Source: an uncultured Bdellovibrionales bacterium | Lineage (GTDB): Bacteria; Bdellovibrionota_C; UBA2361; OMII01 | Direction of reading: 5' to 3' | DNA length: 58,329 nucleotides | Assembly (NCBI GenBank): GCA_964654585.1 | Contig: CAZZJR010000004.1 | Location: forward strand, 13,157-71,485 | In this document: piece by piece, positions 9,562 through 32,727 of the stretch | Position numbering within the stretch: position 1 is the stretch's first letter | Layout of the letters: every line of letters begins with the position of its first letter | Program-made: the position numbers and the translations under genes | The notes under the pieces: generated by a model | What the model was told of the DNA's origin: nothing | Database searches by the model: none | Seen by the model: the letters and a program-made list of their open reading frames with translations, nothing else

Positions 9562-9621
9562 GGCACGATCGTATCTGATGGAGCAACTTGACGGAACGGC
9601 AAAAGAGAGCACGAGAACGTG

Positions 9622-9963
9622 CTACTTCTTTTTCGGGGGCTCTGCTGACTCAATGAGGGAGGCGTCGATGACCATCTTAACCGCCTGCTCTACGATGGCG
9701 CGCTGGTTCTTTGGAATAACTCCCTGGGCGGCGAGCTTCTCAGCCTCCTCCGAGACGAGGCTCATCAGCTTGTCTCGCTGTTCGAGAGTGATGGACCCAA
9801 GCGCGCCAGCTCCTCCTACCCGTGAAACGCCGGACACGCCTTTGACAGACGTCGCACCTTTGACCTTCTCAACTTCGGATACTGACTCAGTGCCTTTGAC
9901 GCCCTTGGTCGACCCGGAGGAGCCGACTGCACCAACTTTCTTGTCGTCTTTATTTTTGCCCAT
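9622..9963 (-). CDS. Small protein with low-complexity N-terminus; FlgM-like anti-sigma candidate, 113 aa
   Basis: Immediately downstream of the FliA-like sigma gene on the same strand; G/V/K/S-rich N-half and helical C-half. The CDS is well supported; the function is inferred. Confidence 0.6.
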   Translation of the reverse strand: MGKNKDDKKVGAVGSSGSTKGVKGTESVSEVEKVKGATSVKGVSGVSRVGGAGALGSITLEQRDKLMSLVSEEAEKLAAQGVIPKNQRAIVEQAVKMVIDASLIESAEPPKKK

Positions 9964-9991: not shown

Positions 9992-10783
9992 TTATCCTGA
10001 TGCTTTCCGCAACGCGTCGGTGAATGGCCCCTTCGAGCCATCTCCCTTGAGCTTCGCCATGAGGGGCCTGAGACCAGGCCGGATCTTCGGCGTGGGCGCG
10101 GCTTTCCCCTGCGCCATGCTCTTCTGCAGGTACGCAATCAGAACTTTGTGCTCTCGCATCACGTTAAGTCCATCTGTCTCCCACTCGGTGGCGACGGTGC
10201 GCAGTGAGAGACCATCCCAGTACACCTTGTAGAGGAGCCACTGGTGCACCGGCTCAAGAGCCGCCATGACCCCCACCATGCGCCGGTAATCGATTAGGTC
10301 ATCGGGCAGCGGATCGCTCGAGACAGCTTGCCGAGTGGCAACGATGCTGGCTCCAACGAGGAGTTCCCTGACCGCTGCTCTCATGTCTGCGTCTTCGTTT
10401 CCAGAAGACTCTGAAACAGGCAGGCGCCCGTCGCGCATTTCCGGGAAGACTCCGTACAACTCTGCTGAGATCTCTCGTGCCTTAGCCTCTACCGCGGTTT
10501 TGCTCGCTGTGTTGCGGGTCCAGCCCTTAGATTTTCTGGCGGCATCCGTCGATGCCTCGTGAATTCGCTTGCGCGCGTACCCCTTAAATGGAATTCCGCG
10601 GGTAGGGTCGAAGCGGCGCGAACAGAAGATCAGCGCTTCCATCGCGGCGCCATCGAGACCATCCAGTCGCCAATCTAGACTCCATGCTCGCGCCACGCTG
10701 CGGGCGATACTTTCGGCCCAACCGTGGTGCTCTACGACCAGGTTGTTAGCTTCTTCTTCTGTTAGGGTTTTTCTCTCGGCCAC
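9992..10783 (-). CDS. Sigma-70 family RNA polymerase sigma factor, FliA/WhiG-like, 263 aa
   Basis: Region 2 (LVVEHHGWAESIA...RRFDPTRGIPFKGYARKRIHEASTDAARK) and a region-4-like segment (LEPVHQWLLYKVYWDGLSLRTVA). Confidence 0.8.
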   Translation of the reverse strand: MAERKTLTEEEANNLVVEHHGWAESIARSVARAWSLDWRLDGLDGAAMEALIFCSRRFDPTRGIPFKGYARKRIHEASTDAARKSKGWTRNTASKTAVEAKAREISAELYGVFPEMRDGRLPVSESSGNEDADMRAAVRELLVGASIVATRQAVSSDPLPDDLIDYRRMVGVMAALEPVHQWLLYKVYWDGLSLRTVATEWETDGLNVMREHKVLIAYLQKSMAQGKAAPTPKIRPGLRPLMAKLKGDGSKGPFTDALRKASG

Positions 10784-10798
10784 GTCCAGTCTCGAATC

Positions 10799-10825
10799 CT
10801 TTCGGCAGGCACTCTCGGTGGATTA
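10799..10825 (-). promoter_or_regulatory. Weak sigma28-like promoter candidate TAATCCAC-N11-GCCGAAAG
   Basis: Reverse-strand match with canonical spacing, just upstream of the FliA-like start; the -35 element matches only partly. Confidence 0.3.
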
Positions 10826-10858
10826 ACCACCGAGCTTCCTGCCCTCCCCCTACCATAA

Positions 10859-10887
10859 CTATCGGCAAGCACTGGCTAAAACCTTTA
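10859..10887 (-). promoter_or_regulatory. Sigma28-like promoter candidate TAAAGGTT-N13-GCCGATAG
   Basis: Near-consensus -35 and -10 elements on the minus strand about 75 nt upstream of the FliA-like gene; spacer 1-2 nt longer than canonical. Confidence 0.45.
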
Positions 10888-11058
10888 GTTGCCAGCAGTC
10901 ACTTACACCCAGGATAGCCCAGAAGCTAGCAGTTCCAAATACTTAACTTTTTCAGAAGCAGTTTTAGCACGGGGATGGATAAGGGGGAGAACGCCGTAGG
11001 AAAGCTAAAAACGCGGCGGAAAGGTTTTGTTTCTACTCAGAAAAACGAGGGCAGCACA

Positions 11059-11940
11059 ATGGGAGTGGCTTCAGTCAGAGAGATTTCGAAGAGAGAGAAG
11101 GCTCGCGCACGTGGTGGTGCTAAGGCAGCTACGCGTTCGTCGAAAGCAAAGCTGCGACTGGTAAAGCCGACGCTGAAGGGTGACGGGTCGCCAACACCGC
11201 TTCAGCAAGAGGCGCTCATCCTGAAATATCGGCTCAAGGCACGCAAACTCGGCCGCAGCATCCTGCGCCGCTGGCACGCCCGCATGGACCTCGACGAGGT
11301 AGACAGCCTAGTCGATCTCTCCCTGTGTGAAGCTGTAAAGCGCTTCAACCCGTCAAAGGGTGCAAGCTTTATGACCTTCCTGTTTTACCACCTAAAAGGC
11401 AACCTCGTTCGTTCGGTCGCCGCGGCGGCCGCTTCGGCATCTCTCCCGTCAAGCCTGCTCGCTGAGGGCGAGGGCACTCCACTCAGTGGAGACCTGATGG
11501 GCGAGCTGAGCCTGCGGGGCCTAAACTCGGCGGAGATCGCCGAGGCAATTTCAAGTCAGGACGCTCCGCAGCCAGATGAGGCGCTGTGGAAGAAGCAGCT
11601 TCACGGCCAGAGCTCACTGGCTTGCGAGAAGCTCGACGCCCTTGAGCAGGAGATCATAAAGCGCATCTTCATCCAGGAGCAGCAGATCATGGATATCGCA
11701 GCTTCCCTCGGATACAGCCGCTGCCACATCTCACGTGTCAAGAAGAAGGCTCTAGAGACGCTGTACGACGAGCTGCGTGGCGCGATGAACCAGGATGACC
11801 TTGGCCAGCGCCCGTCGTTCGACGATGATTCCGATGATGAGGTCGAGCAGCGGATCATGAACCGTAAAGCGATCCACCGCCGCCGGCCGCGCTCTCGCGC
11901 ATCGAAGCAGTCACCATTCGTTCCAGCTCGCGCCGCGTAA
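11059..11940 (+). CDS. Sigma-70 family sigma factor, SigB/F-like, 293 aa
   Basis: Region 2 (SLCEAVKRFNPSKGASFMTFLFYHLKG) and region 4 HTH (LEQEIIKRIFIQEQQIMDIAASLGYSRCHISRVKKKAL); basic N- and C-terminal tails. Start could be 10975. Confidence 0.85.
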   Translation: MGVASVREISKREKARARGGAKAATRSSKAKLRLVKPTLKGDGSPTPLQQEALILKYRLKARKLGRSILRRWHARMDLDEVDSLVDLSLCEAVKRFNPSKGASFMTFLFYHLKGNLVRSVAAAAASASLPSSLLAEGEGTPLSGDLMGELSLRGLNSAEIAEAISSQDAPQPDEALWKKQLHGQSSLACEKLDALEQEIIKRIFIQEQQIMDIAASLGYSRCHISRVKKKALETLYDELRGAMNQDDLGQRPSFDDDSDDEVEQRIMNRKAIHRRRPRSRASKQSPFVPARAA

Positions 11941-15425: not shown

Positions 15426-15453
15426 TAAAGCCCGGCGCAAGTTGCGCCGATAG
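15426..15453 (+). promoter_or_regulatory. Sigma28-like promoter TAAAGCCC-N12-GCCGATAG upstream of the subtilase
   Basis: Close match to the TAAAGTTT-N11/12-GCCGATAA consensus, 47 nt upstream of the ATG, correct orientation. Confidence 0.6.
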
Positions 15454-29447: not shown

Positions 29448-29474
29448 ATATCGGTCCTCAGCCGAGAACCTTAA
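29448..29474 (-). promoter_or_regulatory. Sigma28-like promoter TTAAGGTT-N11-ACCGATAT upstream of the patatin gene
   Basis: Canonical spacing and near-consensus elements on the minus strand, correctly oriented. Confidence 0.55.
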
Positions 29475-31486: not shown

Positions 31487-32727
31487 GCACGTCTCCGAAT
31501 GAACCGGGCTAGACCCACGGCACGCTGGAGTGAACGCTGAACCCCCTCGGAGACAGAGTTCCAGCGCTCCGTGGCGATCTTTCGCACAAGCAGCACAGCA
31601 ATGGCTGATGCGATAACGTTGGGGGTCCAGAGGGCGATTCCAACGTTGAGTTTGCCGCTGTCCGCTAGGGCGACTCCAACCGAGAATATTGCGTAGTAAA
31701 CGATAAACACGGCGAGCCCTAAGGTGGCGGCGAAGCCAGCCCCCCAGGTGCGCTGCGTTCGGGGCGACATGATGCCGAGCGACATCCCGATAAAAGCCAT
31801 AATGACCGAGGCTAGCGGCAGGGAAGTTCTCTGTCCAAGCTCAATCTTCGCTCTACGGAACTTCTTCTCGACTTCAGCCCGTGTCAGGGTCTCTCCGAAT
31901 ACTGACAGCTGCGCGGCATCACTGCTGCGCAGGGCCCTGCGATACTCCTGAATCGCTTCTCGCAACCGCGTCATCGATAGCTCGCGCGCCATGAGGCCCT
32001 TCTTCGTTTCGGTCTTTATCTCATTTGGGTCGACCGTCAGGCTGTTTGAGTTGAACTCGGTCCTGGAATACCGGCCGTCGAGAGTCTCGTGCGCTACGCC
32101 GTCGGCAAGGATCAGGGAAATAGTGCGCTCTGCTTCGTCTGCTACGATCCTGCCACGCTTAGCGACGACTACCTTGCGCTGTTCTGAGTCTCGTTTGTCG
32201 TCGACGAGCACGCGCGATAGGTCGCCCGTTTGATAGTTGATTGCATCAGCATACAGGGTCATCGCTCCGAGCTTATTGAATACCCCCTCCGTCAATCCCG
32301 AGATGCTTTTCGAGCGGGCGATCTCAAACAATGCGCGGGACAGGGCGTCGAAGCCCCATGGGCGGAGCACGCACGAGACCAAGAGGCTCGTCGCACCAAC
32401 CGCAGTGGCGAAGAGCGCAATCGGCTTAAGGAACCTCGCAAGACTGATGCCACTCGCCCGCATGACAACCATCTCGGAGTCGCCGCAGAGCCGTGCAAAA
32501 GCCAACATAACGCCTAGGAGCGTAGACATCGGTAACGCTATCTCGAGGAAGGTTGGAATAATCGCGAGGAATACTTTCGCTATCTGCCCGAACTCAACGC
32601 CGCGGTTGATAATGAGCGACGTCAGTCGCAGCATGCGTAACGTTAGCAGCAGTCCGGTAAAGGCAGCTAAGCTGATGCCGAAGAACGACACAACTTCCCG
32701 CAGTACGTACTTGGACAGAATCTTCAC
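31483..32727 (-). CDS. lptF: LPS export ABC transporter permease LptF
   Basis: IPTFLEIALPMSTLLG, DSEMVVMRASGIS, LWTPN motifs. Confidence 0.88.
   Translation of the reverse strand: MKILSKYVLREVVSFFGISLAAFTGLLLTLRMLRLTSLIINRGVEFGQIAKVFLAIIPTFLEIALPMSTLLGVMLAFARLCGDSEMVVMRASGISLARFLKPIALFATAVGATSLLVSCVLRPWGFDALSRALFEIARSKSISGLTEGVFNKLGAMTLYADAINYQTGDLSRVLVDDKRDSEQRKVVVAKRGRIVADEAERTISLILADGVAHETLDGRYSRTEFNSNSLTVDPNEIKTETKKGLMARELSMTRLREAIQEYRRALRSSDAAQLSVFGETLTRAEVEKKFRRAKIELGQRTSLPLASVIMAFIGMSLGIMSPRTQRTWGAGFAATLGLAVFIVYYAIFSVGVALADSGKLNVGIALWTPNVIASAIAVLLVRKIATERWNSVSEGVQRSLQRAVGLARFIRRRA

What the first reader, a model, noticed from the sequence alone, without database searches (positions are those of the whole stretch)
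9992..11940. Back-to-back pair of atypical alternative sigma factors
Seen: two group-3-like sigmas transcribed divergently from a region of about 275 nt. The FliA-like one has a good region 2 but an unusual region-4 recognition helix (ETDGLNVMREH instead of an SESRVSQ-type helix). The other has a SigB/F-type helix (YSRCHISR), a Lys/Arg-rich N-extension and an acidic-then-basic C-tail (RRRPRSRASK). Inference: a toggle or cascade controlling two lifestyle phases, such as attack versus growth or a developmental switch. One sigma may have altered -35 specificity or act as a decoy.
Basis: partly seen in the sequence, partly recalled or inferred. Interest (0 to 1): 0.62.

Follow-up and report, generated by a model that had tools for sequence, protein, structure and literature searches.

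The report
Paired diverged sigma-28-like transcription factors
Two real, back-to-back genes encode strongly diverged relatives of the flagellar sigma factor; almost every member of an uncultured Bdellovibrio-like lineage keeps them together, each behind its own special promoter, so they look like steps of a lineage-specific gene-control cascade whose targets are untested.

Summary
SigA (9992-10783, minus strand, 263 aa) and SigB (11059-11940, plus strand, 293 aa) are divergent genes 275 nt apart, and every quoted motif is present.

Neither is an ordinary FliA or RpoH. The genome has its own canonical FliA, RpoH, RpoD, three FlgM-like genes and 5-7 flagellins. Both proteins score far below all curated subfamily cut-offs. 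Their nearest relatives are sigma-28/WhiG-type factors.

- **Conservation:** both are single-copy core genes of the lineage (SigA in 72 of 73 high-quality genomes, SigB in 73 of 73). They are divergently adjacent in 74 of 76 evaluable species.
- **Unusual parts are conserved:** SigA's rewritten region-4 helix and SigB's C-terminal HRRRPR motif are invariant.
- **sigA promoter:** sigma-28 type (CTAAAGG-N15-GCCGATA).
- **sigB promoter:** a different, strictly spaced class, TGAAGCA-N17-GAYRAGGGG. It has a sigma-28-like -10 and a new -35, and recurs before a few other genes (about 5-fold over control in the genus).

This favours a hierarchical cascade and an altered -35 specificity. It does not support a symmetric toggle or a decoy. 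Which sigma reads which promoter, and any link to lifestyle phases, remains untested.

The parts
9992..10783 (-). sigA: 263-aa strongly diverged sigma-28/WhiG-related group-3 sigma factor
   Evidence: FliA_WhiG 33 bits against a cut-off of 189.6. AlphaFold pLDDT 89, best folds 9wsm, 1rp3, 6pfj; found in 72 of 73 high-quality genomes of the lineage; an isolated family whose nearest outsiders are sub-threshold FliA/WhiG-like proteins.
10145..10183 (-). Codons for SigA residues 201-213 (W-E-T-D-G-L-N-V-M-R-E-H-K): turn and recognition helix of region 4.2, where FliA has LGVSESRVSQ
   Evidence: W201, D204, L206, V208, R210, E211 and H212 are invariant and N207 and K213 are at least 90% conserved in 77 sequences. 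The model places helices at 194-200 and 205-225. Mapping onto sigma-70 R584/E585/R586/R588/Q589 is my own alignment (inference).
11059..11940 (+). sigB: 293-aa diverged group-3 sigma with a basic disordered N-extension, a SigB/F-like region 4 and an acidic-then-basic tail
   Evidence: Sigma70_r4 28.2 bits (above cut-off), SigBFG 45 bits against 234; invariant LGYSRCHISRVKKKAL and HRRRPR; residues 1-36, 130-155 and 270-282 are below pLDDT 50; hhalign probability 92% to the genome's canonical FliA; found in 73 of 73 high-quality genomes.
11878..11907 (+). Codons for the SigB C-terminal basic motif RRRPRSRASK (residues 274-283)
   Evidence: R274, R275, P277 and R278 are invariant and H273 and R276 are at least 90% conserved in 75 sequences. 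Position verified.
10860..10888 (-). sigA promoter, sigma-28 class: CTAAAGG (10888-10882), 15-nt spacer, GCCGATA (10866-10860); GCCGATA ends 76 nt before the GTG
   Evidence: CCGATA is invariant in 30 close loci. A site of this type occurs in 31 of 75 loci against 5 in the reversed control. It matches the B. bacteriovorus attack-phase consensus TTAAG-N16-CCGATA (PMC3627812). Coordinates.
10948..10987 (+). sigB promoter, new class: T-tract (10948-10952), AGAAGCA (10954-10960), 17-nt spacer, GATAAGGGGG (10978-10987)
   Evidence: The 17-nt spacing holds in 30 of 30 sites. In cassette loci the motif occurs between the two sigma genes only in the sigB orientation, never directed at sigA. It recurs before other genes in the genome. 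Genus-wide there are 125 hits against 24 in the control. The extended -10 is sCnGATAAGrG.
10932..10945 (.). GTTCCAAATACTTA, a conserved element between the two promoters in the closest relatives; possible regulator site
   Evidence: Alignment of intergenic regions; position. Function unknown.
9622..9963 (-). 113-aa gene 28 nt behind sigA, probably co-transcribed; candidate partner or anti-sigma
Evidence: Present directly downstream in 65 of 74 loci, always on the same strand. No Pfam family.
9608..9623 (-). Terminator-like hairpin at the end of the sigA-p113 unit
   Evidence: It is a weak consensus match; shuffled sequence gives as many.

Best explanation
Shown:
- sigA and sigB encode two genuine but extremely diverged group-3 sigma factors that descend from the sigma-28 (FliA/WhiG) part of the sigma-70 family.
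- With the 113-aa gene behind sigA they form a three-gene regulatory cassette. It is a core, single-copy feature of a whole uncultured, flagellated Bdellovibrionota-like lineage.
- The cassette exists in addition to a canonical FliA/FlgM pair.
- The two genes are wired asymmetrically. The sigA-p113 unit sits behind a sigma-28-class promoter (CTAAAGG-N15-GCCGATA). sigB is monocistronic behind a second, strictly spaced promoter class (T-tract, TGAAGCA, N17, GAYRAGGGG).
- That second class keeps a sigma-28-like -10 but has a different -35. It also marks a small regulon of about 3-6 sites per genome.

Inferred:
- This is a hierarchical cascade, not a toggle.
- Canonical FliA, and/or SigA acting on itself, turns on sigA-p113.
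- A cassette sigma then reads the TGAAGCA class and turns on sigB and the small regulon. The best fit is SigA, which keeps FliA-like region 2.3-3.0 but has a rewritten, invariant region-4.2 helix. SigB autoregulation is nearly as likely.
- p113 would gate SigA.
For: Not ordinary orthologues:
- The genome has 15 sigma-70-family ORFs. These include a canonical FliA (247 bits against a cut-off of 190), RpoH (270 bits; 261 against the 241 cut-off of NF005143), RpoD, three FlgM-like genes and 5-7 flagellins.
- SigA and SigB score only 33-52 bits on NCBIfam subfamily models.

Sigma-28 affinity:
- Fold matches are to sigma-28 and WhiG.
- PDB profile hits are to FliA.
- hhalign supports full-length relatedness.
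- The nearest outsiders among 1.84 billion proteins are sub-threshold FliA/WhiG-like sigmas, after a gap from at least 203 bits down to at most 63 bits.

Core status and adjacency.

Purifying selection on the odd parts.

Promoters:
- Characterised, with no sigma-70-type promoter in the region.
- TGAAGCA-class sites precede five other genes in this genome, each with a short 5' UTR.
- The class is enriched across the lineage: 125 hits against 24 in the control within the genus, and 102 of 124 genomes have at least one hit.
- C at position -2 in 56% of sites and G/C at -3 in 72% resemble GCCGATAA.
- A sigma-28-class site precedes an FlgM-like gene, the subtilase and patatin genes, and the FHA gene at the head of the T3SS-like region.
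Against:
- No experiment or covariation assigns either promoter to a particular sigma. The recognition helices and the -35 elements are both invariant, so they carry no covariation signal.
- The sigma-28-type site before sigA is largely confined to the window's own clade (SigA at least 72% identical). Deeper relatives have other upstream sequences, some with an ATAAGGGGG-like -10, so the wiring is not uniform across the lineage.
- The SigA helix carries little net positive charge, so DNA binding is not certain.
- The tree does not resolve where either family branches.
Confidence: 0.55

Rival explanations
1. Two parallel, self-contained modules. SigB positively autoregulates through the TGAAGCA class, with its invariant C-terminal RRRPR tail contacting the T-tract just upstream of -35. 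SigA/p113 is a separate sigma/anti-sigma pair that autoregulates through GCCGATA. On this view adjacency reflects shared history or a shared regulator site, not a cascade.
For: - Autoregulation is the norm for alternative sigmas (established knowledge).
- SigB has a canonical-looking, basic region 4.2.
- A T-tract abuts the -35 only at the sigB promoter.
- The TGAAGCA site between the two sigma genes always points at sigB, never at sigA.
- The -35 region of the sigA promoter varies while GCCGATA is fixed. This would suit a sigma with a weakly specific region 4, such as SigA reading its own promoter.
Against: - The -10 of the TGAAGCA class is sigma-28-like, and SigA retains more of the FliA region 2.4/3.0 signature (Y69, R73, I74, W88) than SigB does.
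- The 17-nt spacing is longer than is typical for SigB/F-type promoters (my knowledge).
- This view does not explain why the divergent arrangement is kept in 74 of 76 species.
Confidence: 0.25
2. SigA is not a promoter-recognising sigma. It would be a sigma-like decoy or adaptor that competes for core RNA polymerase, or titrates an anti-sigma such as p113 or FlgM, and so modulates FliA or SigB activity. Its rewritten helix would be a protein-binding surface.
For: - There is no Pfam region-4 hit.
- All sigma-70 -35-contacting arginine positions are replaced (my alignment).
- The helix region has a low net charge.
- A conserved extra C-terminal extension is present (RPGL motif, F254, two extra helices).
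Against: - The model shows full sigma-2, sigma-3 and sigma-4 architecture with high confidence.
- Invariant N207, R210, H212 and K213 on the recognition helix are typical DNA-contact chemistry.
- FliA-type -10 recognition motifs are retained.
- A promoter class exists with a sigma-28-like -10 and an unassigned -35.
Confidence: 0.1
3. A bistable toggle: the two sigmas antagonise each other, by competing for core polymerase or by cross-acting anti-sigmas, to lock in one of two lifestyle phases.
For: - The arrangement is divergent, with back-to-back promoters 60 nt apart.
- The attack/growth switch of B. bacteriovorus provides an analogy (PMC3627812).
Against: - Sigma factors activate, and no repressor element or reciprocal site was found.
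- Only one partner protein is encoded.
- The lifestyle of this lineage is unknown.
Confidence: 0.07
4. The two genes are ordinary FliA and RpoH/SigB orthologues with a normal flagellar regulon.
For: The best family hits are FliA_WhiG and SigBFG.
Against: - Scores are 5-6 times below the cut-offs.
- A canonical FliA, RpoH and FlgM exist elsewhere in the genome, and FliA is present in 113 of 124 genomes of the lineage.
- At least one flagellin class uses a sigma-54 promoter.
Confidence: 0.02

Closest known systems
FliA (sigma-28) with FlgM, flagellar class-3 control (structures 1rp3, 1sc5, 6pmi, 9wsm)
   Same: - Three-domain group-3 architecture.
- SigA keeps the FliA-like region 2.2-3.0 signature (FxxYAxxRI, W-x-R) and FliA-like region 4.1 with the first helix of the helix-turn-helix.
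- The best fold and profile matches are to FliA.
- A small gene follows sigA.
- The sigA promoter itself is sigma-28 class.
   Different: - Scores 33-45 bits against a cut-off of 189.6.
- The recognition helix reads TDGLNVMREHK in place of SESRVSQ.
- SigA has an extra conserved C-terminal extension of about 40 aa.
- The partner shows no FlgM (PF04316) signal.
- The genome has a separate canonical FliA and FlgM.
WhiG with RsiG (Streptomyces, 6pfj/6pfv/7lq4)
   Same: A sigma-28-family factor used for a developmental programme and held by an unrelated anti-sigma. It is among the top structural matches to SigA (probability 0.99).
   Different: No RsiG-like protein or c-di-GMP element was found here (no Rfam hit). 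Sequence similarity is marginal.
SigB/SigF/SigG family (TIGR02980; 1l0o, 8x6g)
   Same: SigB's region 4.2 (GYSRCHISRVKKKAL) aligns best to this family and to FliA (E 7.5e-12 and 1.4e-11).
   Different: - Whole-protein score is 45 bits against a cut-off of 234.
- No RsbW/SpoIIAB-type kinase anti-sigma or STAS partner is adjacent.
- SigB has a basic N-extension and an acidic-then-basic tail with invariant HRRRPR.
- The promoter spacing is 17 nt.
FliA-driven attack-phase regulon of Bdellovibrio bacteriovorus (TTAAG-N16-CCGATA; Karunker et al. 2013, PMC3627812)
   Same: The same promoter type precedes sigA, a secreted subtilase, a patatin phospholipase and an FHA gene at the T3SS-like locus. Sigma-28 is therefore used beyond flagella.
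   Different: - CCGATA shows no strand bias in upstream regions of this genome (77 sense against 77 antisense), so there is no sign of a large CCGATA regulon.
- Two extra sigma-28-derived factors exist.
- No SigA-family member was found outside this lineage, but cultured Bdellovibrio genomes were not checked directly.

Membership tests
Sigma-70 family, group 3 (three-domain alternative sigma) | Sigma-2 domain (Pfam PF04542) with core-binding region 2.1-2.2 and region 2.3-2.4 | tested here: inconclusive
   SigA scores 21.0 bits and SigB 16.7 bits against a cut-off of 24. The genome scan gives 24.2 bits for SigA when neighbouring matches in the frame are included. In both AlphaFold models the sigma-2 helices have pLDDT above 90, and fold matches are to sigma factors.
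Sigma-70 family, group 3 (three-domain alternative sigma) | Sigma-4 helix-turn-helix (Pfam PF04545) | tested here: inconclusive
   SigB meets it (28.2 bits against 24.1). SigA has no sequence hit, but its model shows the helices at 160-174, 178-189, 194-200 and 205-225, and its alignments to sigma-28 and WhiG structures cover nearly the whole protein (222-252 of 263 residues).
FliA/WhiG subfamily (TIGR02479) | Whole-protein score of at least 189.6 bits | tested here: not met
   SigA scores 33.4 bits (N-terminal third only) and SigB 44.6 bits. The genome's C12 protein scores 246.8 bits.
FliA/WhiG subfamily (TIGR02479) | Region 4.2 recognition helix of the SESRVSQ type that reads -35 TAAA | tested here: not met
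   SigA has TDGLNVMREHK, invariant across the family. SigB has YSRCHISRVKK.
FliA-FlgM sigma/anti-sigma pair | Partner protein belongs to FlgM (PF04316) | tested here: not met
   The 113-aa protein has no Pfam hit. Three FlgM-like genes lie elsewhere in the genome.
SigB/SigF/SigG subfamily (TIGR02980) | Whole-protein score of at least 234 bits, and an adjacent anti-sigma kinase or anti-anti-sigma | tested here: not met
   SigB scores 45.4 bits, on region 4 only. Its neighbours are rsmG and a peptidase.
RpoH (TIGR02392) | Whole-protein score of at least 323 bits (or NF005143 of at least 241) | tested here: not met
   SigB scores 23.5 bits and SigA has no hit. The genome's C57 protein scores 261 bits on NF005143.
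ECF (group 4) sigma | Two-domain architecture without sigma-3; groups with ECF sigmas | tested here: not met
   Both models have a sigma-3 region and linker. Both fall outside the ECF clade, which has 99% support.
Functional sigma factor (binds core polymerase and directs initiation) | Holoenzyme formation and promoter-specific initiation | not testable with these tools
   Indirect support only: fold, purifying selection, and orphan promoter classes.

The most novel reading that the evidence does not exclude
A three-tier sigma-28 lineage cascade. Canonical FliA switches on sigA-p113. SigA is a FliA descendant whose -35-reading helix was re-specified to TGAAGCA while it kept a CGATAA-type -10. 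SigA is held by the unrelated 113-aa protein until that protein is removed, possibly through the neighbouring stripped-down T3SS-like machine. SigA then switches on sigB and a small secreted-protein and kinase regulon. This would be a natural example of sigma-28 re-targeting and of a secretion-coupled checkpoint outside the flagellum.
Probability: 0.15. Interest if true: 0.75.

Novelty: new variant of a known kind. Interest (0 to 1): 0.55.

Why it matters
Sigma-28 is one of the most conservative alternative sigmas in both sequence and promoter. Here a whole uncultured lineage keeps two extra descendants of it. One has an invariant but completely rewritten -35 recognition helix. The lineage also has an orphan promoter class that combines a sigma-28-like -10 with a new -35.

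The system is simple and testable for how sigma specificity is re-targeted after duplication: three proteins, two promoters, and a heterologous core RNA polymerase.

It also gives a first regulatory handle on abundant freshwater Bdellovibrionota-like bacteria that nobody has cultured, and on their unusual T3SS-like locus. No paper in the searched library describes the cassette.

Tried and rejected
- **Calibrating the FliA promoter on flagellin genes.** This failed. None of the flagellin upstream regions has CCGATA. The recurring GCCGTT turned out to be part of a conserved 5'-UTR hairpin, and one flagellin class has a conserved sigma-54 promoter, TTGGCAAGCTCCTTGCT. An FlgM-like gene does carry TAAAG-N16-CCGAAA.
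- **Genomes without FliA.** I looked for lineage members lacking canonical FliA, to see whether sigA keeps its GCCGATA promoter there. None exist: FliA is present in 113 of 124 genomes, and the rest are incomplete.
- **Phylogeny.** The SigA stem is 6.5 substitutions per site, and the join of SigA with SigB has 67% support with a long-branch warning. Placement is unresolved.
- **hhalign against single sequences** is weak for SigA. The first batch timed out.
- **Rfam** found nothing in the two roughly 69-nt leaders.
- **Genome-wide CCGATA** shows no strand bias in upstream regions (77 against 77). There is therefore no sign of a large CCGATA-marked regulon of the kind reported for B. bacteriovorus.
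- **The 10975 ATG** as the SigB start was rejected, because it lies inside the conserved spacer and -10 element.
Full report
**What is there**

The stretch holds two divergent ORFs.
- SigA is 9992-10783 on the minus strand, 263 aa. Its GTG start agrees with the N-termini of its homologues.
- SigB is listed from ATG 10975 (321 aa). Database relatives are about 293 aa, and the 10975 ATG lies inside a conserved promoter element. The real start is therefore ATG 11059.

**Are they sigma factors, and of which kind?**

Sequence scores:
- SigB passes Pfam Sigma70_r4. SigA has only a sub-threshold region-2 hit and no region-4 hit.
- On NCBIfam, SigA's best model is FliA_WhiG, at 33 bits against a cut-off of 189.6. 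SigB scores 52 bits on the generic sigma-70 model, 45 bits on SigBFG and 45 bits on FliA_WhiG. All subfamily scores are far below their cut-offs.

Structure and profile comparisons:
- AlphaFold2 with 77 homologues gives SigA pLDDT 89 and an all-helical three-domain fold.
- The best Foldseek matches for SigA are P. aeruginosa sigma-28, the A. aeolicus sigma-28/FlgM complex, and WhiG/RsiG, at probability 0.97-0.99.
- SigB folds less confidently (pLDDT 64.5). Its N-terminus, inter-domain linker and tail are disordered. It matches sigma factors generally.
- Profile searches of PDB sequences give only E = 0.17 for SigA (FliA region 2) and E = 2e-5 for SigB (sigma-28 region 4).
- hhalign aligns the SigA and SigB profiles to each other over their full length (probability 60%) and aligns SigB to the genome's own FliA (probability 92%).

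Family limits:
- Against 1.84 billion representative proteins, the SigA family is isolated. Full-length members score 203-343 bits, and the next full-length proteins score at most 63 bits.
- Seven of those next-best proteins were scanned; each has FliA/WhiG as its best subfamily model, below the cut-off.
- A tree places both families outside the ECF and RpoD/RpoH groups, but on very long stems, so their placement is unresolved.

**They are extras, not the organism's FliA or RpoH**
- The 2.97-Mb genome has 15 sigma-70-family ORFs.
- These include a canonical FliA (247 bits), an RpoH (261 bits on NF005143, above its cut-off), RpoD, a further FliA-like protein, ECF sigmas, and four sigmas with long N-terminal extensions.
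- It also has 5-7 flagellin genes and three FlgM-like genes.

**Conservation**
- A pattern scan of one genome per species returned 80 loci. All are uncultured MAGs, most of them labelled Bdellovibrionota or Bdellovibrionales; the rest carry older or generic labels.
- In 74 of these, SigB lies divergently upstream of SigA. Four of the six exceptions simply lack upstream sequence.
- The 113-aa gene follows SigA in 65 of 74 loci. FliN/SctR-like genes lie within 8 kb in 29 of 45 loci with enough flank.
- Across the 124 genomes that make up this lineage in the genome collection, SigA is found in 114 (72 of 73 high-quality) and SigB in 113 (73 of 73 high-quality). Each is nearly always single-copy. 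Canonical FliA is in 113.
- The odd features are the conserved ones:
  - In SigA, W201, D204, L206, V208, R210, E211 and H212 are invariant, N207 is nearly so, and an RPGL motif sits in an extra C-terminal extension.
  - In SigB, LGYSRCHISRVKKKAL and HRRRPR are invariant.
- By my alignment, the SigA helix replaces the positions that contact the -35 element in sigma-70 (R584, E585, R586, R588) with G, L, N and M, and puts R at the Q589 position. That mapping is an inference.

**Promoters**

No sigma-70-type promoter is present in the region.

The sigA promoter:
- Upstream of sigA, 30 close relatives share an invariant GCCGATA, preceded at a distance of 15-17 nt by a variable TAA-containing element. 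In the window this reads CTAAAGG-N15-GCCGATA at 10888-10860 on the minus strand.
- This is the sigma-28 class, and it resembles the TTAAG-N16-CCGATA attack-phase consensus of B. bacteriovorus (PMC3627812).
- The same class precedes several other genes in this genome:
  - the subtilase gene;
  - the patatin gene;
  - the FHA gene at the head of the T3SS-like region;
  - an FlgM-like gene.
- It is found before sigA in 31 of 75 loci against 5 in a reversed control. These are mostly the window's own clade. Deeper relatives differ.

The sigB promoter:
- Upstream of sigB lies a different element: a T-tract, then (T/A)GAAGCA, exactly 17 variable bases, then GAYRAGGGGG. It sits at 10948-10987, and the spacing is identical in 30 of 30 sites.
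- In deeper relatives the -35 appears to vary to TGAAGCG (seen by eye).
- In the 80 loci, the site between the two sigma genes always points at sigB, never at sigA.
- Elsewhere in this genome the same architecture sits 20-35 nt before the start codons of two small unknown proteins, an SNase-like lipoprotein, an SH3-domain secreted protein and a Ser/Thr kinase.
- Across the lineage, 102 of 124 genomes have at least one strict match. In the genus there are 125 matches against 24 for the reversed control.
- In 150 listed sites, the bases before GAYRWG are C at -2 (56%) and G/C at -3 (72%). This gives sCnGATAAGrG, a sigma-28-like -10 (GCCGATAA) coupled to a new -35.
- The two promoters share the register T(A/G)AAG-N19-GATA.

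**Interpretation**
- Solid: these are two real, lineage-specific sigma-28-derived sigma factors in a conserved cassette, each with a dedicated non-sigma-70 promoter of a different class.
- Inferred: the wiring is hierarchical. FliA, or SigA itself, reads the sigA promoter.
- Inferred: the TGAAGCA class is read by one of the cassette sigmas. SigA fits slightly better because it keeps FliA-type -10 determinants and has a new -35 helix. SigB autoregulation is about as plausible, perhaps with its RRRPR tail on the T-tract.
- No evidence bears on a toggle or on lifestyle phases.

**Limits**
- There is no covariation signal.
- Flagellin promoters could not calibrate FliA, because at least one flagellin class is sigma-54-dependent.
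- Earlier notes from this scan describe the same cassette in four other genomes and propose p113 as an anti-sigma. I confirmed the synteny and the promoters, but I did not test p113 binding.

Noticed in passing
Genome contig C81:5581-6441 and orthologues (loci L098-L120), outside the window: One flagellin class (N-terminus MAINIRTNL) has a conserved sigma-54 promoter, TTGGCAAGCTCCTTGCT. It also has a conserved 5'-UTR hairpin, ACGGCAAAGTTTGCCGT, before the ribosome-binding site. At least some flagellins here are therefore sigma-54-dependent rather than FliA-dependent.
   Followed up: partly
window 15447-15452 (+) and 29449-29454 (-): Sigma-28-class promoters precede two genes. CTAAAGC-N14-GCCGATA precedes the secreted subtilase, and TTAAGG-N15-CCGATA precedes the patatin phospholipase.
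   Followed up: partly
Genome contig C4:10480-10510, about 2.6 kb upstream of the window start: A multi-FHA-domain membrane protein (C4:10628-11977) at the head of the T3SS-like region is preceded by CTTGAAAA-N12-GCCGATAT. This site combines a TGAAA-like -35 with a sigma-28 -10.
   Followed up: no
Genome contigs C14:45881-47590, C50:18645-20393, C53:12200-13798 and C53:17687-19345: Four sigma factors of 530-580 aa carry long paralogous N-terminal extensions. Their cores resemble group 1/2 sigmas. Their best named hit is the MzaA anti-phage-associated sigma, far below its cut-off (192 bits against 800).
   Followed up: no
window 10932-10945: GTTCCAAATACTTA lies between the two promoters and is conserved in the closest relatives. 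It may be a binding site for a regulator shared by both genes.
   Followed up: no
Genome contigs C34:6517-6837, C144:117-446, C43:4442-5380, C8:about 31695-32712, C2:74697-76475: Genes behind TGAAGCA-class promoters: two small proteins without a family, a Cys-rich SNase-like lipoprotein, a coiled-coil SH3 secreted protein, and a membrane Ser/Thr kinase. This is a candidate regulon of the cassette.
   Followed up: partly
loci L046, L047, L062 (upstream of sigA): In some distant relatives the sigA upstream region carries an ATAAGGGGG- or GACATGGGGG-type -10 where the window has GCCGATA. The wiring of the cassette therefore differs between clades.
   Followed up: no
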